Shown here: positions 5,264 to 16,563 of the stretch, piece by piece | Layout of the letters: every line of letters starts with the position of its first letter | How positions within the stretch are numbered: the first letter of the stretch is position 1 | DNA from: a virus | Direction: 5' to 3' (one strand) | Length of the DNA stretch: 64,000 bases | Virus record (IMG/VR): IMGVR_UViG_3300037840_000148 | Span: 32,001 to 96,000 of that record | Notes under the pieces: generated by a model | Databases searched by the model: none | What the model was told of the DNA's origin: nothing | Seen by the model: only the letters and a program-made list of their open reading frames with translations | Made by a program: the position numbers and the translations under genes

Positions 5264-7690
5264 ATGATACAACTTACTCCTGAATTACAGGCCGCCGTAG
5301 CTCCTATCCAACAACTTGCTGCGCAGAATCAACCAACTCCTCCGTCAGCGCCAGCCCCGGCCGGTCAAGATGCGTTAAGTACCGGGATACCTACAGCCAC
5401 GACAGGTTTAGCCGGGCCTTTGCAGAACGCTTTAAGTAACCCAGCGAACGGCGTTCCGCTGTCTTTTAACGACAAACTACACGCTAATGTCAACGATGCG
5501 GCCGATAATACGCCGCCTGCAGCACAAGGAAAGCCTGGTAGTTGGGCGCGTCAGCTTGTTTCTGGCGCGGTATCAAGTCTTTCAACTGGATTAGGCGACG
5601 TAGCTGCCGCAGCACCGGCCAAAGGTATATTGGGCGGAATCGGTGCAGTCCAGAACGCTCGTGCGGACAGAATTCAGAAAGAACGAAAGGCCCAGACGGA
5701 AGAAGATCAAGCGCGGGCTACGATTGCTTTAACTAATGTCCAGAAGATGTATCACCAGACGCAACTTCACCAACTAAGTGATGAAATTAATCATGCCGAC
5801 GTCGCGGAAGGACAAAAAGAATTCCAACATCTTACAAAAGATGTCAGTGATTTAGGTTTTCCGCCCGCCACGATAGTTGCGCAAGATATCAGTGAAGCTC
5901 AGTATCAAGCCGGACTGAAAGACGGAACCATCAACCCTAGTACGATGACGATCATTCCGACTAATACATATACTCCGATTGGAAAGGATGGGAAACCGGC
6001 AGTAGATCCTGATACCGGTTTACCTAATCATGCCAAGATGTATTCTGTCGTTATTGTCCCGAAACAACTCCCGTTATCCGAAGATCAAATTGATACCATA
6101 AATAAATACGGCAATGGCCCGAAATTTACTTACGACAAGGATCATCCTATCGTACTACCTGGTGCAACAGCTTTGAATCTCGTCCAGTCAGCCAGAGACG
6201 CACAAACCGTCCAAGCTAAGGCTGAATCTGACCGTAAAGCCGCCCAAATTGCCGACTTAACTCAAGATCAAAAATTAGCACAAGCACAAGCATTGAAGAA
6301 TCTCGGCCCGCAGTTCCCTGGAATTTCAGCACAATCAGAAAGTCTCGATAAAACCATGAAGTTCATTACCGGTCAGCATATGATCCAGCAACCGGAGATG
6401 GGCGCTGACGGCAAGCCGACAGGAAAAGTCAACACGGTAGTCGACCCCCGTAGCGCGGCGTTCGCTCAAGCACACCCGACGGCTGCGGAAGATTTCATGA
6501 ATCTTAACGGCGGTTATGTCGATTATGTCAAGTCTCGTGACACTGAGACAGAAAAGCTAAAAGATCAAGCAAACGCTCCGCTGGATAAGATAGAAAAAGA
6601 TCTCCCGGAAATGGAGCCAACCAAGCTGCCGTCTACGATTTCGTTTCTTCAACAAAAATTGAAAGATCCTAATGCGGATAAGCCGCAGGTAACGAATTTA
6701 CTAGTCCAAGCGCAACAAGCGTTGGTAGGGTCACAACGCGCCAAGCTTAAGGAAGAGGAAGACAAAAATAGTCTAGATAATCCTCCGACTTCTAATGCGC
6801 CGTTGACGCCGGAACTTCAATCTCAAATTAATAGTCTCCCGGCCCCGCAAAAAGCCGTCTTATCTGCATATGATCCGAACACCCAGAGCGCTTTGATGTC
6901 AATCGCGTTCGGTAACGGCGAACAGGACTTAGAAAAGAACTTCCCGAGTCGTTTGACTAAAGGTGCTCCAGGTCTTAATACCCAACAAGCGTTAGGGGTT
7001 CTTCACCAATTGAATCCCCAGTGGAGTGAACAAAGTTACGGCGTGAAGCATGACGCTTATAAGAGCGCTACGAGCGGGAAGCTTGCCGACCAACGAGACA
7101 GCCTGAATAACTTCATCGGGCACGCCGCGGAAGCCAAGAGAATTTCAGATACCTTCTGGAATTCAGATCCGCGTCTTTTCAAGAGTACGATTAATAAATT
7201 ATCGACTCTTGGATATGGGACAAGCGCTAACGCCCTACGAGAAGCTTTGGAAATAGTCAACTCGGAAGCTCTGACGATGATCAAGAGCGGCTATGCCGCG
7301 ACTGCGGATGAAATCAAAGCCCAGAATGAAATAAACAGTGCCGACGCTACTGTTGGTCAGATTGATGCCGATTTGAAGGTCTTGGCACGTATGGGTACCG
7401 TCCGAGCCAACACGATGAACGGTCATTATAAAACAGCAACCGGTGATAATTTCCCGAACTTGATTGATACCGAGAATCAAAACGACGCTAGGTATCTCGG
7501 CATCCCGGTTGAGAAGTTTTATACTGGCGGAAGAATCGGTGGTTCAGGCAACGCGCCACAACAACAGGTAACGCAGACCGGTGCGCCGGGACAATCGGCC
7601 GGAGCCGCGGCAGCGACGCCTAACGCCGCACCAGTCGAAGGGACACAACCGAGCGACTTCTTCGGTCAGTTCGGCGGGAAACCGAGATAA
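5264..7690 (+). CDS. Putative internal virion (ejection) protein, medium
   Basis: 808 aa, Ala/Gln/Pro-rich and helical; stop overlaps next start (TAATG). Confidence 0.55.
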   Translation: MIQLTPELQAAVAPIQQLAAQNQPTPPSAPAPAGQDALSTGIPTATTGLAGPLQNALSNPANGVPLSFNDKLHANVNDAADNTPPAAQGKPGSWARQLVSGAVSSLSTGLGDVAAAAPAKGILGGIGAVQNARADRIQKERKAQTEEDQARATIALTNVQKMYHQTQLHQLSDEINHADVAEGQKEFQHLTKDVSDLGFPPATIVAQDISEAQYQAGLKDGTINPSTMTIIPTNTYTPIGKDGKPAVDPDTGLPNHAKMYSVVIVPKQLPLSEDQIDTINKYGNGPKFTYDKDHPIVLPGATALNLVQSARDAQTVQAKAESDRKAAQIADLTQDQKLAQAQALKNLGPQFPGISAQSESLDKTMKFITGQHMIQQPEMGADGKPTGKVNTVVDPRSAAFAQAHPTAAEDFMNLNGGYVDYVKSRDTETEKLKDQANAPLDKIEKDLPEMEPTKLPSTISFLQQKLKDPNADKPQVTNLLVQAQQALVGSQRAKLKEEEDKNSLDNPPTSNAPLTPELQSQINSLPAPQKAVLSAYDPNTQSALMSIAFGNGEQDLEKNFPSRLTKGAPGLNTQQALGVLHQLNPQWSEQSYGVKHDAYKSATSGKLADQRDSLNNFIGHAAEAKRISDTFWNSDPRLFKSTINKLSTLGYGTSANALREALEIVNSEALTMIKSGYAATADEIKAQNEINSADATVGQIDADLKVLARMGTVRANTMNGHYKTATGDNFPNLIDTENQNDARYLGIPVEKFYTGGRIGGSGNAPQQQVTQTGAPGQSAGAAAATPNAAPVEGTQPSDFFGQFGGKPR

Positions 7691-10600
7691 TGGCTACAGG
7701 AAACGACGTAAATCAGACAATCCCGATAGATTTGAATCCGTCCGGCGTCAATGATGTCTCGACACCGGGGATGATCTCAATCGATCAAAACCCAGTTGCG
7801 CCCGAACCTCAGTTAGCCGCTCCTCAAAATATCCCGAACCAGCAGACACCGAGAAACATCCCCAAGACGGCAGACAAGCCGCCTATTATTTCTCCGACTC
7901 AGACAGTCCCGATGTTTTCACCTAACGGCGATCTCGGTGATATCCCGACCGAACGTGTCCATGACGCCATTAAAGCTGGCGGAATAATTGGTACTCCGGT
8001 TGTTGCGCCTGACGGTAGTCACGGCGTTGTTCCGGCTAGCCGGTTGCATGAAGCGTTGAAAGCCGGGGGAAAAATTGATCCGGACGGTTGGGCTCCGATG
8101 CACCACACACCCGGTATACTTGAAAAAGTAACCGGTTTGCCGATCACGGCAACGGGACCGGGCACGATTGGCGCAGACGTTACTAACAGATGGAACGCAG
8201 CAACACCTAAAAACCCCGACTTAAACGCCCCGTATCAATCTACCGGACAACTTCCTGCGCCGAGCGTAATTACCCCGCCGGAAGCGCATGAAGAATTATC
8301 AAAGGGCGTTGTTGCGAATGCCATGACACCGTATGAACGTCAACAACACCCGTTCTTAGCGGCCGGATTAGATTTTGCGGGCGGGATGACATCGCCGGAA
8401 AACTTCGCAATCATGGTTGGGTCAGGCGGATTAGGTAAACTGCCCGGTCCTGCGGGTCAGATTATCGCGAAAGCCTTGTCGTCCGGCTTTGGTTTAATGT
8501 CCGTTTATGCCGCGGTGAAGGAATCGCCGCAGTTTATGGACGCTTTAGCTAAAGGCGATGAGCCGGGCGCTAAAGAAGCCTTGATGAAGATAGTTTTGAA
8601 TATCGCGGCCGGTGAAATGGCTGCCGAGCACGTAATACCAGGCTTCAAGCCGACATTAGGCGCTGTCGGCGAATCAGCAGAGGCCGGAACGCAAGCTTTA
8701 GGCGCTGCAGCGACAGAATACGGCGGTAAGGCCGTCGATGCAGTCAAGAAAGCCGGAGAAGTGGCCGGTGCAGTAGGCGGCGTAGTCAAGGGTGCTGGTC
8801 AAAAGGCCGCGGAAACAGTCACGCAACCGGTCAAGATGATGAACGAAGGGTCGGAAGAAAGGCTTATTCGGTCTATGTCCGGCAGCGCGGGTGTTAATGA
8901 ACGTGACTTAAAAGAAAACGCAACTAGAATGTTGCCTTATCTTGTTGAACAGAATAAAACAAGTAAAGTTTCGACTCCGGAAGATCTTGCCGAGGCTATG
9001 CATGACCAAAAGACAAAACTTTGGAATGATAAACTCGGCGGTAAACATCCTGGAGAAACAATCGACGGGGATAAAATCGCTCAGGATATTAAAGACGGTA
9101 TCAATACCTCGACCCGTCGTCATTTTCCGGAAGTCACGGAAGCATTAGAAAAGTGGGCGGATACTTTTAAAGGTCCGTATCAGCTTGACGAAGCGATGCA
9201 AGCCATTACTGACTTTAATAGCAAGCTGCGAAACTTCTACAAGCAATCACCGAGCGAACAATACAGAATGGCCGCGGCAGATCCCAAATTAGGGATATTA
9301 CAGGACGCTGCAGATTCTTTGCGAGATCACGCCTTTGATAAGCTTTCCGAATTAGGTGAAAAGAACATCCCGGAACTGCGAAAGGATTATGGCGCACTGA
9401 ATCAATGGCAGCGTGTCGCTGAAAAACGTGCCGTGGTTTATGGCCGTCAAGCACCGGTTGACTTCAAACAGAGTATGGGCGCTGTCGCTGCGGTAGCAAG
9501 CGGTCATCCATTAGCTGCGGCGATTCCGTTTGTTACAAAGTACCTCAACTCTCCTGAGCACTTGATTGAATCCGCCATCAAGAAGGCCAGTAAGACGACA
9601 ACTGCGACACCGCCTGAAACTCCAACCGAGCAACCAAACCCTACAAAGGCTACCGCGGGGCCGGGCCTCGGTAGCAAGATTGACCTACCGGCCTATAATC
9701 TCCCGACCGAACCTGCCCAAAATGTCCCGGCTGACAGACGCGCTGAAGGTACTTTACCTGCGGATGTCCACAAACATGAGTGGGGACACATTACAAATGC
9801 AGCAATCGAAGACTTCGGGACGGAAGGCATCAAGAGTGATTCGCATCCAGACTTAGCCGGTCAGAAAAAGACTGCCGCCGCGACAATTATTTTTCACGGT
9901 GTCGACTTTGATGACCCAGAGTCCGTTGCAAGGAATTCCGGCCGTATCCTGTCGACAATTCTAGGCGGCGCTGCTGCGGACGAACTGCACAGCCAAATAC
10001 CGTTCGAAATCAATAGAATGGCTGGCGGCGATGTTAAATTATTGAAAGACATATTCAAAAAAGTAGGCTTCTCGGATGACGAAATAGATGGCGCTATTAG
10101 ATACGGTTTAGATAGAGCAAAAAGAAACTTGACAAAACCCGGAATCGGTGATATATTACAGGCTAATGCTAAAGTCCGAGAGGCTGACTTGCACCCTGAT
10201 TATCACGCTAGCCCGGAAAGAACCGAAGCTTACGCTAATGAAGTAAGGAGAATCCGCGATGAAAACAACAGAGCAGGAAAAACAGCCGTTCAAGGGAACG
10301 ACGAAGCAAATGCTGGAGAACCTGGAAATAAATCTCCAAAAGTGGACGCCGGAACAGAAGGCGAAATTTCGGGAGAAGGTACTAAGCGAAGTCTCCCAGC
10401 CACAGCAGTCGTAACCCCTGACGAAGAAGAAAGTAAAGAACCGGTCACGGCTCGTGACGCGTTCGAAAATATCAAGAAAAAGTATGGTGAATCATCGAAT
10501 GCCGCAAAGACTGGCGAGGGTGCGTCATTCATTACACCGGAAGGTAAGTTTGTCCACCTCGGCACGGATGACCATCCGCAGGTAATCAAGAAAGCCGGTT

Positions 10601-12897
10601 ATGAAAGTGACAGTCAAGATACCCGGGTGCCGTTTATTAATGAATCCGGCGCTATCAGGTCGAATTTCACGACAGGTCGTGCTGGTAGGACGTTGTCATT
10701 CAGCGTTCCGAAAGACGGTGTCAATCCGGAACAAATTGATGCCATGAAGGCCGCCGTCCATCAAGGACTCGGCCGAAACGGTCAGTTGCGTATCGAGACC
10801 GCCGACTCGCCGACGAACCTTAAGAATTCAATCAAGGATTTTGCTACTGCTAATAATGTAGAACCAATGCTTCGGGAGATTGGTGTCCACCCAGAGCAGT
10901 CTAAAAAACTGGATTTACACGCCGAAAAAGAAGAATACAAAGAGTCGCCTGGTTGGACTGAAAAAGCCATCCGGATGGCTAAAGATCAAGGCGGGGCGTT
11001 CTCGATAGACACCAAATCGGGCGAAGCGCCAAAAACCGGCTATATGGTTGAAGCTCGGCCGGAATCTAGAATTTATCTAAATCACGAAGCTACTCCGGAA
11101 GATCTGCAAAAATTCCACGATGATAACCGAGAGTACCTAGCCGAACACCCTGATTTGCATGTCGGGGGTTGGTACGACGCCGATAAAGGTAAGAACGAAT
11201 TAAATATCTCGGCGCGAACTGAAGACAAAAATCGAGCTATCGATTTAGCTAAAAAGTTAGATCAAGTTGCCATCTACGATTTGAATAAAGGCGAGCCAAT
11301 CGAGACTGGCGGAAAAAGCGAGCAAATTGAGTTTCCTGATTATCCTTTAAATCAGCGGATGGCAAACCTGCGCGGCGAAAGTAAGCCTTACGATGAGAAG
11401 ACTAGTCAACGTATTAGTTCAAGATTCCCTACTGCCGTTAGTGCGTCTGAAGACCCGATGGGCCATAATTTAACACTAGACGTTAATAAGATCCTTGAGC
11501 GCCCGAAGGTAGCACAAGCTTTATCAGAAAAGATTCTGAAACAGAATAAAAGCATGGTCTTTACGCCGGAAGAAAAAGCCAACCCGAAAGATTTATTTGA
11601 TTCATTTATCAGGCAGGCTAAAGATAATATAAAATATGTTTACAACCAGGCCCGGGCTTCAGGGAATCATATCGCCGACCGTATCTGGTATGACGGCGCA
11701 CACAATTTCGGAACGCGGGACGCGGAAGTTTACGGTTTAGAGCCGAGACAAAACTTTGCGACTATAGCAACCCAATCTCCTCAGAAAGATTGGAACCAAA
11801 ACGTATCTTTATATGAACGCTTGACGGACGCCGTCCTCAATAAACCGGATGTTAAGTTCACACCGGAAATGAACACGAAGGCAAATCAGTTTATTCGCGA
11901 GATTGCTAAAACTAATAGCAAGCGAGCCGCGCAAGGAAAATCACAGATCGATCCTTGGGTCGACCGAAAACTGATTAATAAGCTGAAAGGCAAGTCTCTG
12001 GATGATTTGAGTAATCCTGTAGAGAAAGCTGCCTGGGTTCGTTTGTACGACGAGGCACACAACCCCCGGGAATTTCATGAAATAGCCCCGGATGGAACTA
12101 AGAAGGGCATCGTGATGCTGAAGGGCACCAACACCCCTGAAAAAGTGGCTTGGGGCGGTCTAGACAGCATCGCGAAAGGAATTTCTGTCCTGCAAGACGG
12201 TTCTTTGGAAAACATCAGCAGAAATCTCGGCGAAGCCCATAAAGTAAGAAGCTTTTATAACAACATCGCCGAGCCAAACAGCCCGCACGAAGATGTCACG
12301 GCGGATACTCACCACGTTGGCTTGAGTTTGATGCGGCCGGTTGCTGGGTCTGATGCTGAACCGGCATTAAATTTCGGCGGTAACGGTTCGACGATAACAG
12401 GGACTCATGGAACGTATCCGTTGTATGTCGAAGCAACTAGACAAGCTATGCGTGAACTGAATGCCGAACATCCTGATGATCCACCGATGCAGTATCCTCG
12501 TCAACTTCAATCTGTTGCTTGGGTTGAATGGCGAAAAATGTTTCCACCGGAATCTAGGACTGAAGCAACTAAAAATAGTGTAAACTCAATATGGAAGGAA
12601 CACCTTGATGGAAAAATCACAGCCGACGAAGCAAGACAACAAGTCTCAGAATTCGCACGTCGATTACGTTCTGGACTGGATGAGGGAGAACAACGTCCCG
12701 CTGACGAAGGAAAACTACCTGCACATCAATTACATGGGGCAGGAAGTTCCACCGGAAGCGGAACAGGATCTTCCGCCGGAACTGAAGTACCGGCAAGAGC
12801 AGTAAAAATCAACCCGAAGAAACAAGCCGCCGCTAACGGCTGGCTCGGCATGATGCAGTCAACGAAAACCGGACAGAAGAGTCTAGGAACAAAATAA
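7690..12897 (+). CDS. Large multidomain internal virion protein with zincin (M41-like) peptidase and C-terminal HhH-glycosylase-like domain
   Basis: 1735 aa; HEWGH..LGGAAADE..GGD; C-terminal WYDGAH..ATQSPQKDWNQN..KVRSFYNNI..VTADTH..LQSVAW. Confidence 0.65.
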   Translation: MATGNDVNQTIPIDLNPSGVNDVSTPGMISIDQNPVAPEPQLAAPQNIPNQQTPRNIPKTADKPPIISPTQTVPMFSPNGDLGDIPTERVHDAIKAGGIIGTPVVAPDGSHGVVPASRLHEALKAGGKIDPDGWAPMHHTPGILEKVTGLPITATGPGTIGADVTNRWNAATPKNPDLNAPYQSTGQLPAPSVITPPEAHEELSKGVVANAMTPYERQQHPFLAAGLDFAGGMTSPENFAIMVGSGGLGKLPGPAGQIIAKALSSGFGLMSVYAAVKESPQFMDALAKGDEPGAKEALMKIVLNIAAGEMAAEHVIPGFKPTLGAVGESAEAGTQALGAAATEYGGKAVDAVKKAGEVAGAVGGVVKGAGQKAAETVTQPVKMMNEGSEERLIRSMSGSAGVNERDLKENATRMLPYLVEQNKTSKVSTPEDLAEAMHDQKTKLWNDKLGGKHPGETIDGDKIAQDIKDGINTSTRRHFPEVTEALEKWADTFKGPYQLDEAMQAITDFNSKLRNFYKQSPSEQYRMAAADPKLGILQDAADSLRDHAFDKLSELGEKNIPELRKDYGALNQWQRVAEKRAVVYGRQAPVDFKQSMGAVAAVASGHPLAAAIPFVTKYLNSPEHLIESAIKKASKTTTATPPETPTEQPNPTKATAGPGLGSKIDLPAYNLPTEPAQNVPADRRAEGTLPADVHKHEWGHITNAAIEDFGTEGIKSDSHPDLAGQKKTAAATIIFHGVDFDDPESVARNSGRILSTILGGAAADELHSQIPFEINRMAGGDVKLLKDIFKKVGFSDDEIDGAIRYGLDRAKRNLTKPGIGDILQANAKVREADLHPDYHASPERTEAYANEVRRIRDENNRAGKTAVQGNDEANAGEPGNKSPKVDAGTEGEISGEGTKRSLPATAVVTPDEEESKEPVTARDAFENIKKKYGESSNAAKTGEGASFITPEGKFVHLGTDDHPQVIKKAGYESDSQDTRVPFINESGAIRSNFTTGRAGRTLSFSVPKDGVNPEQIDAMKAAVHQGLGRNGQLRIETADSPTNLKNSIKDFATANNVEPMLREIGVHPEQSKKLDLHAEKEEYKESPGWTEKAIRMAKDQGGAFSIDTKSGEAPKTGYMVEARPESRIYLNHEATPEDLQKFHDDNREYLAEHPDLHVGGWYDADKGKNELNISARTEDKNRAIDLAKKLDQVAIYDLNKGEPIETGGKSEQIEFPDYPLNQRMANLRGESKPYDEKTSQRISSRFPTAVSASEDPMGHNLTLDVNKILERPKVAQALSEKILKQNKSMVFTPEEKANPKDLFDSFIRQAKDNIKYVYNQARASGNHIADRIWYDGAHNFGTRDAEVYGLEPRQNFATIATQSPQKDWNQNVSLYERLTDAVLNKPDVKFTPEMNTKANQFIREIAKTNSKRAAQGKSQIDPWVDRKLINKLKGKSLDDLSNPVEKAAWVRLYDEAHNPREFHEIAPDGTKKGIVMLKGTNTPEKVAWGGLDSIAKGISVLQDGSLENISRNLGEAHKVRSFYNNIAEPNSPHEDVTADTHHVGLSLMRPVAGSDAEPALNFGGNGSTITGTHGTYPLYVEATRQAMRELNAEHPDDPPMQYPRQLQSVAWVEWRKMFPPESRTEATKNSVNSIWKEHLDGKITADEARQQVSEFARRLRSGLDEGEQRPADEGKLPAHQLHGAGSSTGSGTGSSAGTEVPARAVKINPKKQAAANGWLGMMQSTKTGQKSLGTK
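10129..10157 (+). promoter_or_regulatory. Internal sigma70 promoter inside the 1735-aa gene
   Basis: TTGACA (10129-10134), 17-nt spacer ending in TGa, TATATT (10152-10157). Confidence 0.7.
10259..10414 (+). CDS. Nested overprinted 51-aa protein (+1 frame)
   Basis: MKTTEQEKQPFKGTTKQMLENLEINLQKWTPEQKAKFREKVLSEVSQPQQS; SD TAAGGAG 8 nt upstream; promoter about 100 nt upstream; below the ORF-track cutoff. Confidence 0.65.
   Translation: MKTTEQEKQPFKGTTKQMLENLEINLQKWTPEQKAKFREKVLSEVSQPQQS
12608..12805 (+). CDS. Nested overprinted 65-aa protein (+1 frame)
   Basis: SD AAGGA 8 nt before ATG; globular-looking DYVLDWMRENNVPLTKENYLHINY..EAEQDLPPEL while the host frame turns low-complexity. Confidence 0.65.
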   Translation: MEKSQPTKQDNKSQNSHVDYVLDWMRENNVPLTKENYLHINYMGQEVPPEAEQDLPPELKYRQEQ

Positions 12898-12909: not shown

Positions 12910-13128
12910 ATGCGACAAGAAAACGGCGGAGGCGACAAACTCGCTTCCGGAGCAGCGCGGGCGTCATTTAGAACTTCAAATTCTAAAGTTACAGCCGAGA
13001 AATGGGCGGCTATCTGGGATGACTATGAACCAGAATCAAAAATCCGTAGTAGTGATTCCAACGCTCCGTCGACCGGAGATGTTAGCTCTGACGCTACAGC
13101 ATCTGTCCCAGACGCGACAGGCTTCTAG
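12910..13128 (+). CDS. Small hypothetical protein overlapping the next gene
   Basis: Strong SD AGGAGG; 72 aa. Confidence 0.6.
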   Translation: MRQENGGGDKLASGAARASFRTSNSKVTAEKWAAIWDDYEPESKIRSSDSNAPSTGDVSSDATASVPDATGF

Positions 13129-13795
13129 TCTAGACGTCCGGATCTACGTCGATCATACGACGGAACAAAGACTTGATGAAGTAGAATACGTCCGAGATAC
13201 GTTCTTCCCGACGGCGGATATTTTTCACGCCGCGACACACGTCTTGTGCCCGGGCGGGACGTGGAACATCCTGCAATCCCTGAAATCCGGATATGAAACT
13301 GGTGTGGAATTTATTTTCTTCGTTGAGGAAGACGTCTTTGTCCGGCCGGAATTCTTCGATAGGCATCTAGAGATGCAGGCGAGCGGCGATTACTTCGTGA
13401 CATGCGGCAGAAAGCTACCGAATAGAGATGAGTTTTACTATTCCAACCCCGGGACGTGTTACCGCCGCGAGAAGTTGGCTTTAGTCATTCCACATATCAA
13501 CGATAGATACTTTGCGGATCAAGCTGGATACGTCGAGGAACATTTTCCTAATATGCAGGACGCTGGAACTAACGATGACGGTTTGATTCGGCGCGTGATG
13601 CAATCCGTTGGCGGAAAAGCTTTATGCGCCGTCCCGCCAACTGCCTACCATCAAGGGTTTCACTATTACAACCGGATGCCGCAATTCACGGTCGAGGGAA
13701 CACTACCAGAGAAGATTGAACAACTAAAGGTTTTGTTACAGAAGGTTAATCCGAAAGATCGATATTCATCCGACTTCGAGCCATTTAATGGCTGA
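13019..13795 (+). CDS. GT-A glycosyltransferase, GT13/POMGNT1-like
   Basis: VVVIPTLRRPEML..IYVD..FVEEDVFVRPEFF, compare POMGNT1 NRPNYL..VFID..LEEDLDIAVDFF. Confidence 0.7.
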   Translation: MTMNQNQKSVVVIPTLRRPEMLALTLQHLSQTRQASSLDVRIYVDHTTEQRLDEVEYVRDTFFPTADIFHAATHVLCPGGTWNILQSLKSGYETGVEFIFFVEEDVFVRPEFFDRHLEMQASGDYFVTCGRKLPNRDEFYYSNPGTCYRREKLALVIPHINDRYFADQAGYVEEHFPNMQDAGTNDDGLIRRVMQSVGGKALCAVPPTAYHQGFHYYNRMPQFTVEGTLPEKIEQLKVLLQKVNPKDRYSSDFEPFNG

Positions 13796-15570: not shown

Positions 15571-16563
15571 TTAGTTTGTTGGAATTTTAAATCCATATCC
15601 CGCCTTTAATGCGTATTCTTTTCTTGTTGTTAAATCTTGACCAATTTTTATATATCTATCTGTAATATCGGCATTGCTTGAATGCCCCATCCAATACCGC
15701 ATCAAACTCCTCGGGATATTCTGGCTTTCAAGGTGAGTCGCCCTGAACCGCCGGAAAGCGTGAAAACCCTCCGTAATCCCGACGTCTTCTAGTTGATCGT
15801 AGGCCGTTTCAACCCTGACGTGACCGCCAAGGCTATTTTGGAACAAAAAGCCCGTCTCGGGGAGTTTCGCATCGATTAAATACTGGTTTACGTCCGAGTG
15901 GAGGTCAACTTCCCTGTTCCCGGCTTCCGTCTTGGGTTGTGGCTCGATACGGCCGCGGACTAGTGTACTCTTTACCACCACGACGGCTTTTAGGGGGTTC
16001 CAATACGAGAAGCCATAAGTGCCTCCTAGAGGGATTTTTTCCGGTATTATGCCGCAGCCCGGAACAGTAGATCCATAAGTCGTTGTATGGTGCCCTTGTA
16101 AAGCTAAGGCTTCCCCTACACGAAGACCTGACGCCGCAAGTAGTATCAGAAGACTCCTAACCTGCTTTGGTGCCTGTAATAGGCTCGTATCGATTTGTTC
16201 CGGGGTTACAATAGGCGCGTCGACTTCCTGCTGATTCACGATAGGCAGGTCGATAAAGTCATGATTCCACTTCCGTGGGTATAACTCGTTGCCATTCAAA
16301 TCAGTAGCAGACGAAATTACAGCCTTCACGACGTTGAAAATCTGATTGATTGTCGAGGCGGCTAAACCGACGTTATTCAACTCCGCTATAAAAGCCTTCA
16401 TTTTGCCGTTATCGACATACTCAAGATCCGCGTCGCCTAATCTCGGCAAAATGTGATTGTTCAAATATGAATCATAGATTCGGACGGTCGCTGGCCGGAC
16501 AGGCGAACGACGACGCGTTTGAATCCATTCGATGTATTTCACGGCTTGTTGTTCGAATTTCAT
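15571..16563 (-). CDS. Tyrosine recombinase / integrase
   Basis: SAM-like N-domain (HILPRLG, LAASTIN); SGLRVGEALAL, KT, HAFRR, MGH, Y catalytic set. Confidence 0.9.
   Translation of the reverse strand: MKFEQQAVKYIEWIQTRRRSPVRPATVRIYDSYLNNHILPRLGDADLEYVDNGKMKAFIAELNNVGLAASTINQIFNVVKAVISSATDLNGNELYPRKWNHDFIDLPIVNQQEVDAPIVTPEQIDTSLLQAPKQVRSLLILLAASGLRVGEALALQGHHTTTYGSTVPGCGIIPEKIPLGGTYGFSYWNPLKAVVVVKSTLVRGRIEPQPKTEAGNREVDLHSDVNQYLIDAKLPETGFLFQNSLGGHVRVETAYDQLEDVGITEGFHAFRRFRATHLESQNIPRSLMRYWMGHSSNADITDRYIKIGQDLTTRKEYALKAGYGFKIPTN

What the first reader, a model, noticed from the sequence alone, without database searches (positions are those of the whole stretch)
7690..12897. Injected polyvalent protein whose enzyme domains are each followed by a nested gene
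Seen: HEWGH..GGAAADE..GGD (from 9775, FtsH/M41-like zincin pattern), two further compact domains (about 10440-11330), and a C-terminal SPQ..W..N/KVRSFYNNI/VTADTH domain resembling HhH DNA glycosylases. Established: phage polyvalent proteins string together host-attack domains delivered with the DNA. Inference: each of the two predicted enzymes is followed by a small +1-frame gene, like effector-immunity pairs compressed into one ORF. This would protect the phage or lysogen while the protein is made.
Basis: partly seen in the sequence, partly recalled or inferred. Interest (0 to 1): 0.8.

Follow-up and report, generated by a model that had tools for sequence, protein, structure and literature searches.

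The report
Two hidden genes inside phage polyvalent gene
A 1735-residue multi-enzyme phage protein gene carries two small, conserved genes in a second reading frame, each just behind an enzyme domain; this supports a compact enzyme-plus-partner cassette that current annotation misses.

Summary
ORF 7690-12897 (1735 aa) is a modular polyvalent protein at the end of the virion operon of a complete 110.8-kb phage. The HEWGH module folds like the FtsH/M41 protease domain (Z up to 12.6). The C-terminal DUF7178 module folds like HhH-GPD DNA glycosylases (Z 9.1; all 19 best hits belong to that superfamily).

Counting +1-frame ORFs alone shows nothing: a codon shuffle gives as many. Comparison with relatives does show that two of them are real genes.
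- nE (12608-12805, 65 aa) has peptide homologues at the 3' end of the DUF7178 domain in 79 of 84 viral loci and 22 of 41 prokaryote-genome loci. It is a free-standing downstream gene, partly overlapping, or fully nested. Its codon-position pattern shows selection on the nested frame.
- nB (10259-10414, 51 aa) recurs in the +1 frame, with SD and ATG, in all seven other lineages with DNA. It lies over a disordered linker.

Profiles built without the window hit only these two ORFs in the whole genome (E 3e-14 and 7.5e-9).

This scan earlier noted nested genes in polyvalent-protein linkers on other DNA (TnpV in ICEs; one gut phage). I found no publication describing it.

The parts
7690..12897 (+). 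Polyvalent protein gene, 1735 aa (P0001). It is the second-to-last gene of the + strand virion operon.
   Evidence: ORF; modular relatives carry ART-PolyVal, LPD38 and KTSC; terminase, portal, capsid and tail-fibre genes lie upstream.
7690..9684 (+). Module A (aa 1-665): conserved N-terminal module with Gly/Ala-rich hydrophobic stretches. Possibly the virion-incorporation or ejection part.
   Evidence: 38-55% identity in P0002, P0005, P0006, P0007 and P0009. No Pfam, PHROG or NCBIfam match. An Atlas feature lead points to P22 gp16 clusters (score 0.94), but hhalign to P22 gp16 is negative.
9694..10293 (+). Module B (aa 669-868): zincin metallopeptidase with the FtsH/M41 protease-domain fold. 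HEWGH is at 9775-9789, GGAAADE at 9964-9984 and GGD at 10024-10032.
   Evidence: pLDDT above 90. VIA: the top 8 hits are FtsH/FtsHi/Ycf2, Z 9.5-12.6, 137-167 residues aligned. Foldseek lists FtsH first, prob 0.99-1.0. H696, E697, H700, E765 and D781 are invariant across 8 sequences; H696, H700 and D781 are also invariant across 19.
10129..10157 (+). Sigma-70-like promoter match TTGACA-17-TATATT (11 of 12, TG before the -10), 130 nt upstream of the nB start.
   Evidence: P = 0.027 for any site at 11/12 or better in the codon-shuffled gene. Matches of 10/12 sit at the same distance in L092, L001 and L067. However, the hexamers are the conserved codons NLT and GDIL, so this is ambiguous.
10244..10250 (+). 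Shine-Dalgarno TAAGGAG, 8 nt before ATG 10259.
   Evidence: GAGG/AGGAG-type motifs lie 6-9 nt before the ATG in all seven nB loci examined, five independent lineages besides the window.
10259..10414 (+). nB: nested gene, +1 frame, 51 aa (MKTTEQEK...TPEQKAKFREKV...).
   Evidence: +1-frame homologues in L002, L001, L092, L093, L094/95, L097-101 and L067; family members are called as free small proteins (P0244-P0248); an HMM built without the window hits only this ORF in the six-frame genome (E 7.5e-9; next best 1.7); the main-frame third position is the least variable.
10294..10425 (+). Disordered main-frame linker (aa 869-912, pLDDT below 50) that hosts nB.
   Evidence: The main frame here is low-complexity and barely alignable between relatives.
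10426..10905 (+). Module C (aa 913-1072): compact alpha/beta domain, function unknown.
   Evidence: pLDDT above 90. It is widespread in large polyvalent proteins. The only structural resemblance is a weak one to gelsolin-like folds, Z 5.6 or less.
10936..11385 (+). Module D (aa 1083-1232): compact alpha/beta domain, function unknown.
   Evidence: Weak Pfam match to DUF488-N3i, E 0.039; PHROG 3170, E 1e-4.
11410..12690 (+). Module E (aa 1241-1667): DUF7178, an all-alpha domain with the HhH-GPD glycosylase-like fold. Candidate catalytic Lys1518 is at 12241-12243 and Asp1539 at 12304-12306.
   Evidence: Pfam PF23802, E 9e-15. Model pLDDT 88.5. VIA: all 19 hits at Z 5 or more are HhH-GPD glycosylases or QNG1, best 3n0u at Z 9.1. 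K and D are invariant in 47 sequences. The motif was compared by eye with E. coli Nth.
12592..12598 (+). Shine-Dalgarno-like GGAAGGA, 9 nt before ATG 12608.
   Evidence: An SD-like motif is present in 22 of 30 family members, against a 20% background.
12608..12805 (+). nE: nested gene, +1 frame, 65 aa, acidic. The core is DYVLDWMRENNVPLTKENYLHINY...LPPEL.
   Evidence: family alignment; present in 79 of 84 viral loci, with a spectrum from adjacent to fully nested; present in 22 of 41 genome loci; codon-position mismatch 0.20/0.08/0.39; an HMM built only from free-standing genes hits only this ORF (E 3.4e-14).
12691..12897 (+). Main-frame C-terminal tail (aa 1668-1735). It is disordered and low-complexity over nE, with a short conserved end (MMQS..G..LG.K).
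   Evidence: pLDDT below 50 from aa 1668; tails of the window, L002 and L001 compared.

Best explanation
Gene 7690-12897 encodes a phage polyvalent protein. Its order is a conserved N-terminal module, an FtsH/M41-like zinc peptidase, two unknown compact domains, and a DUF7178 domain with the HhH-GPD DNA-glycosylase fold.

Two real small genes are overprinted in its +1 frame, each with its own ribosome-binding site and ATG. nB lies over the disordered linker behind the peptidase. nE lies over the last helix and disordered tail behind the glycosylase-like domain.

Shown: each small gene travels with its domain as a cassette when domains are shuffled. nE also exists as an ordinary downstream gene in other phages. 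The nested state therefore arose when the large ORF read on through a pre-existing partner gene in another frame.

Inferred: each small protein is the cognate partner of the preceding enzyme domain. Most likely it is a binder that keeps the domain inactive, or escorts it, in the cell where the protein is made, and perhaps in the lysogen. The enzymes would then act only after packaging and delivery. Acidic nE could act as a DNA-mimic-type inhibitor of the glycosylase-like domain.
For: Nested genes are real:
- Peptide conservation of nE in the +1 frame of relatives whose DUF7178 domain is only 33-39% identical.
- nE is present in 79 of 84 viral loci.
- Arrangements form a continuum: separate gene (L014, a 23-nt gap with a stop in its own frame upstream; L011, L012, L015, L022), partial overlap, 44 fully nested, and nested more than 900 nt inside a continuing ORF.
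- In the nE core the nested-frame codon positions mismatch at 0.20/0.08/0.39. In its first 18 codons, which overlap the folded helix, the main frame dominates.
- Profiles built without the window find only these two ORFs among 2543 six-frame pieces of the genome.
- nB recurs in seven further lineages, always in the +1 frame; a conserved SD and ATG were checked in five of them.
- nB relatives are called as free proteins elsewhere.
- Of 168 nested ORFs compared all-against-all, only these two families are conserved across divergent loci.
- Both hosts are disordered main-frame segments.

Cassette behaviour:
- nE follows DUF7178 when that domain is internal (L085, L059, L067, Bradyrhizobium L118/L120/L123).
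- nB follows B in L001 although the domain order differs.

Enzyme folds.

Partner or inhibitor idea: a small gene immediately 3' of an effector domain is the layout of polymorphic and MuF toxin-immunity pairs (PMC3482391, PMC5576092; titles and abstracts seen). nE is acidic, median pI 4.6.
Against:
- nB sits behind module C, not B, in the L097-L101 lineage.
- nE is not detected in 19 of 41 more distant genome loci, nor in Roseobacter phage CRP-738. In L034 it lies 3.6 kb away.
- The small proteins match no known immunity, inhibitor or any other family.
- nB is mostly basic and has no obvious inhibitor feature.
- The glycosylase assignment rests on fold only. Pfam HhH-GPD does not match and hhalign to E. 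coli Nth is negative.
- Packaging and injection of the large protein are inferred from gene position and from the protein class only.
Confidence: 0.45

Rival explanations
1. The small proteins are positive partners rather than inhibitors. They would be subunits, folding or packaging chaperones, or cofactors that the preceding domain needs in order to work or to be loaded into the capsid.
For: The same linkage data fit equally well. nE is kept next to stand-alone DUF7178 genes that sit in the head-morphogenesis region: in CRP-738 the DUF7178 gene lies between portal and coat. No toxicity of the domains is known.
Against: CRP-738 itself shows no nE. A required subunit would be expected in all DUF7178 loci, yet 19 of 41 distant loci lack a detectable one. 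No data either way on binding.
Confidence: 0.25
2. The nested genes are real but functionally unrelated to the neighbouring domains. Unconstrained linkers are simply the only places in a giant ORF where a small gene, such as an early or lysogeny-expressed moron, can be overprinted.
For: Both lie exactly over disordered segments. nB is behind C in one lineage. A strong promoter-like site lies 130 nt upstream of nB. Earlier notes of this scan report unrelated genes (TnpV) nested in polyvalent linkers (AI notes, not checked here).
Against: nE stays directly behind DUF7178 in about 100 loci, including those where it is a separate gene and no linker is involved. nB keeps its place behind B across a change of domain order.
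Confidence: 0.2
3. The small peptides are made by programmed ribosomal frameshifting from the large ORF, as alternative C-termini, not from their own starts.
For: The frame is +1 in most loci.
Against: A stop codon lies just before the Met in the nested frame in L001 and L002. SD and ATG are conserved. nE is a separate gene after the large ORF's stop in L014, L011, L012, L015 and L022, and follows in the same frame after the stop in L111. I saw no slippery site on reading 12540-12620; that is inspection only.
Confidence: 0.04
4. The nested ORFs are chance open frames, or by-products of main-frame conservation.
For: The number and length of +1-frame ORFs in the gene equal the shuffle expectation. 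Six of the eight ORFs of 40 aa or more are indeed not conserved.
Against: The main frame over both ORFs is poorly conserved and low-complexity, while the nested peptides align without gaps. Codon-position pattern, free-standing homologues and HMM E-values of 3e-14 and 7.5e-9 all point the same way.
Confidence: 0.03

Closest known systems
Polyvalent proteins of phages and conjugative elements (Iyer, Burroughs, Anand, de Souza, Aravind 2017, PMC5512222)
   Same: A giant multi-domain protein with shuffled effector modules. A zincin metallopeptidase is the hub domain. Relatives carry ART-PolyVal and LPD38.
   Different: That paper's text has no occurrence of 'glycosylase' or 'overlapping'. The HhH-GPD-like reading of DUF7178 and the nested partner genes are not part of the described class.
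Polymorphic toxin and MuF toxin-immunity cassettes (PMC3482391; Jamet et al. 2017, PMC5576092)
   Same: An effector domain is followed immediately 3' by a small cognate gene, and the two move together as a cassette.
   Different: Here the small gene is mostly inside the effector's own ORF in another frame. The domains can be internal rather than C-terminal. Toxicity and immunity are unproven, and no MuF domain was detected.
Phage lambda Rz/Rz1 spanin genes (own knowledge); also comS within srfAB and mobB within mobA of RSF1010
   Same: A complete gene with its own start is embedded in the +1 frame of a larger gene, and the two products are thought to work together.
   Different: The host gene here is a multi-enzyme polyvalent protein and the embedded genes lie over disordered linkers. 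There are two different embedded genes in one ORF, each tied to a domain.
FtsH / peptidase family M41 protease domain
   Same: The fold (Z 9.5-12.6) and the HExxH...GGxAAxE...GD motif pattern.
   Different: There is no AAA+ ATPase module and no membrane anchor. No Pfam family at all, Peptidase_M41 included, matches module B even at E up to 10. It is a stand-alone domain inside a polyvalent protein.
HhH-GPD DNA glycosylases (EndoIII, OGG, MagIII, MutY, AlkA) and QNG1/DUF2419
   Same: The fold (Z 5.5-9.1, all 19 top hits). An invariant Lys...Asp-Thr-His arrangement resembles Nth K120...D138-T-H (by eye).
   Different: There is no sequence-profile match. The domain is about twice as long as Nth, has no Fe-S cluster motif, and its substrate is unknown.

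Membership tests
Polyvalent proteins (Iyer et al. 2017) | Several unrelated effector or enzyme domains in one very large polypeptide of a phage or mobile element, with domains shuffled among relatives | tested here: met
   Five modules are re-ordered or replaced among P0002-P0018. Modules B, C and D together hit 1233 proteins at E up to 0.001; most of the 150 best listed are 800-3000 aa.
Polyvalent proteins (Iyer et al. 2017) | Association with signature domains of the class (zincin MPTase, ART-PolyVal, LPD domains) | tested here: met
   Module B is a zincin. Relatives carry PF18760 ART-PolyVal and PF18857 LPD38.
Polyvalent proteins (Iyer et al. 2017) | Packaged in the virion and delivered with the DNA | not testable with these tools
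   Only gene position at the end of the virion operon and an Atlas feature lead to P22 gp16. hhalign to gp16 was negative.
Peptidase M41 (FtsH) | Protease-domain fold with HExxH and a downstream acidic third zinc ligand | tested here: met
   Z 12.6 to 8xks_B, 11.5 to 7tdo_A and 11.1 to 2di4_B. H696, E697, H700, E765 and D781 are invariant in A4.
Peptidase M41 (FtsH) | Fusion to an AAA+ ATPase module, and a match to the Pfam Peptidase_M41 profile | tested here: not met
   No Pfam family at all on module B at E up to 10, and no AAA domain anywhere in P0001. It is M41-like in fold but not a member of the FtsH family.
HhH-GPD DNA glycosylase superfamily | Two-lobed all-alpha HhH-GPD fold | tested here: met
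   All 19 hits at Z 5 or more are superfamily members or QNG1. The best is 3n0u_A: Z 9.1, rmsd 3.8, 178 of 209 residues. The tool's caution on helical folds applies.
HhH-GPD DNA glycosylase superfamily | Sequence-profile match (Pfam PF00730) | tested here: not met
   No match in the whole genome at E up to 10 while all 14 control genomes matched. hhalign of A2 against E. coli Nth gave probability 0.08. The PDB profile search found nothing.
HhH-GPD DNA glycosylase superfamily | Catalytic Asp after a Gly/Pro-rich loop following the HhH motif (plus Lys in bifunctional enzymes) | tested here: inconclusive
   K1518 and D1539 (in DTH) are invariant in 47 sequences. They can be lined up by eye with Nth K120 and D138 (in DTH). 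No residue-level superposition was available.
Toxin-immunity (effector-partner) cassette | Small gene immediately 3' of the effector domain, inherited together with it | tested here: met
   nE: 79 of 84 viral and 22 of 41 genome loci, always directly behind DUF7178 except in L034. nB: seven other lineages, six of them directly behind B.
Toxin-immunity (effector-partner) cassette | Effector is toxic and the small protein binds and neutralises it | not testable with these tools
No experimental data.
Embedded (nested) genes of the Rz/Rz1 type | Complete ORF with its own RBS and start, wholly inside a larger same-strand ORF in another frame, with both frames kept open by selection | tested here: met
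   (SD and ATG). (selection on the nested frame). The main frame stays open across both in all lineages.

The most novel reading that the evidence does not exclude
Enzyme domains of phage polyvalent proteins are mobile two-gene cassettes. Each domain carries its own cognate inhibitor (immunity) gene hidden out of frame in the linker behind it. Polyvalent proteins would then be strings of compressed effector-immunity pairs. The hidden genes, possibly transcribed from internal promoters in lysogens, would also protect the lysogen against the injected effectors of related superinfecting phages.
Probability: 0.25. Interest if true: 0.85.

Novelty: new variant of a known kind. Interest (0 to 1): 0.72.

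Why it matters
- Polyvalent proteins are thought to be the first weapons a phage or plasmid delivers into a cell, yet how the producer copes with a chain of active enzymes is unknown. Two conserved, unannotated genes placed exactly behind two enzyme domains give a concrete, testable answer: a partner or inhibitor per domain.
- They add about a hundred well-supported cases of long same-strand overlapping genes in phages.
- The spectrum from adjacent to fully nested shows how such nesting arises.
- DUF7178 gains a fold and candidate catalytic residues.
- There is a practical point too. Gene callers miss these genes: in the deposited phage OP947163.1, nE lies unannotated inside a giant 'methyltransferase' CDS.
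- Cultured Bradyrhizobium strains carry the nested pair and could serve for experiments.

Tried and rejected
- Chance test of ORF counts by codon shuffles: no excess. The count argument is rejected and replaced by conservation tests.
- The other +1-frame ORFs (8942-9148, 9566-9856, 10454-10585, 10601-10747, 10880-11008, 12461-12583) carry stops in relatives, or are conserved only where the main frame is; 10880-11008 has no stop in L002, but its peptide is not conserved there. Not genes.
- blastn against deposited phages found nothing. tblastn of nE against deposited phages found nothing.
- Foldseek of the E model against the PDB gave only noise. VIA-wide then gave the glycosylase list.
- PDB, Pfam, PHROG and NCBIfam searches for the small proteins gave nothing credible. 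The Atlas search for nE scored 0.76, not informative.
- hhalign of E against E. coli Nth and of module A against P22 gp16 was negative in both cases.
- A module-B alignment that was too diverse could not seed a locus search. A genome-contig scan for module B found no relative.
- One large alignment failed internally.
As a result there is no DNA for most protein-only relatives, no computed complex and no expression data.
- Programmed frameshifting was considered and rejected (see rivals).
Full report
**Setting.** The window is bases 32001-96000 of a single-contig virus record of 110,831 bp with direct terminal repeats, rated complete. The + strand block begins with terminase, portal, capsid and tail-fibre genes. 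It ends with a run of large ORFs of 674, 268, 808 and 1735 aa, preceded by an ORF that runs in from before the window start, and then a 258-aa glycosyltransferase-like ORF. The strand then switches to an integrase and the replication genes. The finding's ORF, 7690-12897, is open for 1735 codons.

**The large protein.** Pfam sees only DUF7178 (E 9e-15). Full-length and partial relatives show five modules that are kept, dropped or re-ordered independently:
- A, aa 1-665
- B, aa 669-868
- C, aa 913-1072
- D, aa 1083-1232
- E, aa 1241-1667

For example, P0004 has the order C-B-...-E. Some relatives add ART-PolyVal, LPD38 or KTSC domains. Modules B-D alone hit 1233 proteins at E up to 0.001; most of the 150 best listed are 800-3000 aa. 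This is the polyvalent-protein class of Iyer et al. 2017 (PMC5512222). Virion packaging and injection are inferred from the class and from gene position. An Atlas feature lead to P22 gp16 was not confirmed by hhalign.

**Domain folds.** An AlphaFold model of B-D (pLDDT 86.5) has three well-folded domains separated by disordered segments at aa 869-912 and 1073-1082.
- *Module B.* It aligns best to FtsH, FtsHi and Ycf2 protease domains: Z 12.6-9.5 for the top eight, 137-167 residues aligned. Foldseek independently ranks FtsH first. H696, E697, H700, E765 and D781 are invariant. There is no AAA+ module and no Pfam M41 match, so it is M41-like in fold and not an FtsH.
- *Module C.* It has only weak gelsolin-like matches, Z 5.6 or less.
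- *Module D.* It is unassigned.
- *Module E.* The model (pLDDT 88.5; disordered from aa 1668) gave nothing with Foldseek. With VIA-wide, all 19 hits at Z 5 or more are HhH-GPD glycosylases or the related queuine-salvage enzyme (3n0u Z 9.1, 7ugk Z 9.0, MagIII, AGOG, OGG1, EndoIII, ROS1, MutY). Sequence profiles do not see this relationship. By eye, the invariant K1518...D1539-T-H lines up with K120...D138-T-H of E. coli endonuclease III. I therefore call E glycosylase-like in fold, with candidate catalytic residues and an unknown substrate.

**Nested ORFs: chance test.** The gene has eight +1-frame ORFs of 40 aa or more and none that long in the +2 frame (its longest is 30 aa). Synonymous-codon and codon-order shuffles give the same number and longer maxima. 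Open frames by themselves mean nothing here.

**nE (12608-12805).**
- *Close relatives.* Mapping the eight ORFs onto the two closest relatives with DNA showed that six carry stops or are unalignable, and the seventh (10880-11008) has no stop in L002 but a peptide that is not conserved. The eighth, 12608-12805, is 65-69% identical as a peptide, with a stop just before its Met.
- *Wider search.* Eighty further viral loci were retrieved through the DUF7178 domain, which is only 33-39% identical. Most have the same small peptide at the 3' end of the domain. With a profile, 79 of 84 loci are positive.
- *Arrangement.* This is the key. The small gene is separate in L014 (a 23-nt gap), L011, L012, L015 and L022. 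It overlaps by 4-116 nt in about 18 loci. It is fully nested in the +1 frame in 44 loci. Where the big ORF goes on, it lies 900-2900 nt inside it.
- *Prokaryote genomes.* In an independent set of 41 loci, nE is found in 22, including cultured Bradyrhizobium strains. It is undetected in 19 mostly more distant ones.
- *Selection.* In the nE core, mismatches fall at nested-frame positions 1/2/3 as 0.20/0.08/0.39, and as 0.19/0.11/0.43 in another clade. In the first 18 codons, which overlap the last folded helix of E, the main frame sets the pattern.
- *Specificity.* A profile built only from the free-standing genes hits one piece of the six-frame genome, 12584-12802 (E 3.4e-14; next best 2).
- *Signals and composition.* An SD-like GGAAGGA lies 9 nt before the ATG. 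The family is acidic, median pI 4.6.

**nB (10259-10414).**
- *Homologues.* Behind module B, every locus with DNA has a +1-frame ORF of 49-58 aa starting with ATG. It is preceded by GAGG/AGGAG at 6-9 nt and shares the core TTxQLxE..K(S/T)V...(T/S)PE(E/Q)KAK.RE. These loci are L002, L001 (B only 29% identical, different domain order), L092, L093 and L094/95. L097-101 and L067 were found later.
- *Host frame.* The main frame over it is a low-complexity linker that hardly aligns, and the main-frame third codon position is the least variable.
- *Free forms.* Five family members are called as free small proteins in public data.
- *Specificity.* A profile without the window sequence hits only 10247-10411 in the genome (E 7.5e-9; next best 1.7).
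- *Position.* nB covers the end of B's last helix plus the disordered linker, aa 857-908 against disorder at 869-912.
- *Exception.* In L097-101 the order is B-C-nB-D, so nB is not always directly behind B.
- *Other nested ORFs.* An all-against-all comparison of 168 nested ORFs from 17 large genes found no third conserved family.

**Promoter-like site.** TTGACA-17-TATATT lies 130 nt upstream of nB (P 0.027 for the gene). It recurs at 10/12 at the same distance in three lineages. However, its hexamers are conserved codons (NLT, GDIL), so I leave it open.

**Interpretation.** What is shown: two real nested genes, dual coding confined to disordered host segments, and cassette-like linkage of each small gene to a domain. 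The adjacent-to-nested series indicates that nesting arose by extension of the large ORF through the partner gene. What is inferred: the small proteins are cognate partners, most likely inhibitors or escorts, of the M41-like peptidase and the glycosylase-like domain. The layout matches polymorphic and MuF toxin-immunity pairs (PMC3482391, PMC5576092). No expression data could be obtained. Rivals are a positive subunit or chaperone role, unrelated hitchhiker genes using free linkers, frameshift products (contradicted), and chance (contradicted).

**Novelty.** Embedded genes are known: lambda Rz/Rz1 (own knowledge), and comS in srfAB and mobB in mobA as named in this scan's earlier notes. Effector-immunity cassettes are also known. 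My literature searches found no description of partner genes nested in polyvalent-protein linkers, of the nE or nB families, or of a fold for DUF7178. This scan has noted the general phenomenon before on other DNA, namely TnpV nested in ICE polyvalent genes and three hidden genes in a gut-phage giant gene (AI notes, not checked here). The theme is therefore not unique to this window, but these two families and their domain linkage are new to me. In the deposited phage OP947163.1, nE lies unannotated inside a giant CDS.

Noticed in passing
window 12910-13128 and 13019-13795: A 72-aa ORF with a strong AGGAGG SD starts 13 nt after the polyvalent gene's stop. It overlaps by 110 nt, in another frame, the annotated start of the 258-aa glycosyltransferase-like ORF. 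Either the GT starts later or this is a further overlap.
   Followed up: no
L034:8895-9080: In this viral contig the nE homologue lies 3.6 kb downstream of the DUF7178 gene instead of directly behind it. It is the only unlinked case seen.
   Followed up: no
L145 (OP947163.1, Rhodobacteraceae phage LS06-2018-MD07) 2681-2923: The DUF7178 domain sits inside a CDS of about 9.3 kb annotated 'methyltransferase' that runs across the record origin. An nE-family ORF (HMM E 4e-5) is nested behind the domain and is not annotated.
   Followed up: partly
L118, L120, L123 (Bradyrhizobium sp. SRL28, B. elkanii WSM2783, Bradyrhizobium sp. BRP22): Genomes of cultured strains carry DUF7178 inside a large ORF, with nE nested about 1.8 kb before that ORF's stop. 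They are possible experimental systems.
   Followed up: partly
L002, L092, L093, L094, directly after nB: A different conserved domain (..AIKxGGAIPGG...FHDPxTGSTLAL..VTPExV..) replaces module C behind nB in these relatives. It was not identified.
   Followed up: no
P0244 (nB family, 53 aa): JGI names this small protein 'tellurite resistance protein'. Nothing in my searches supports that name.
   Followed up: no
L089 (Roseobacter phage CRP-738) 1678-4185: The DUF7178 protein gp40 (835 aa) lies between portal and coat genes, the place usually held by MuF/gp7-like head proteins. No nE was detected there.
   Followed up: partly
window 12691-12897 (main-frame tail): After the low-complexity stretch over nE, the large protein ends in a short motif shared with L002 (MMQS/MMRQ...G..LG.K). 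This suggests that the read-through across nE serves to attach a C-terminal signal.
   Followed up: no
window 15571-16563 (-): A tyrosine-integrase-like gene (PHROG 1, E 4e-27) lies just past the virion operon, so the phage is probably temperate.
   Followed up: no
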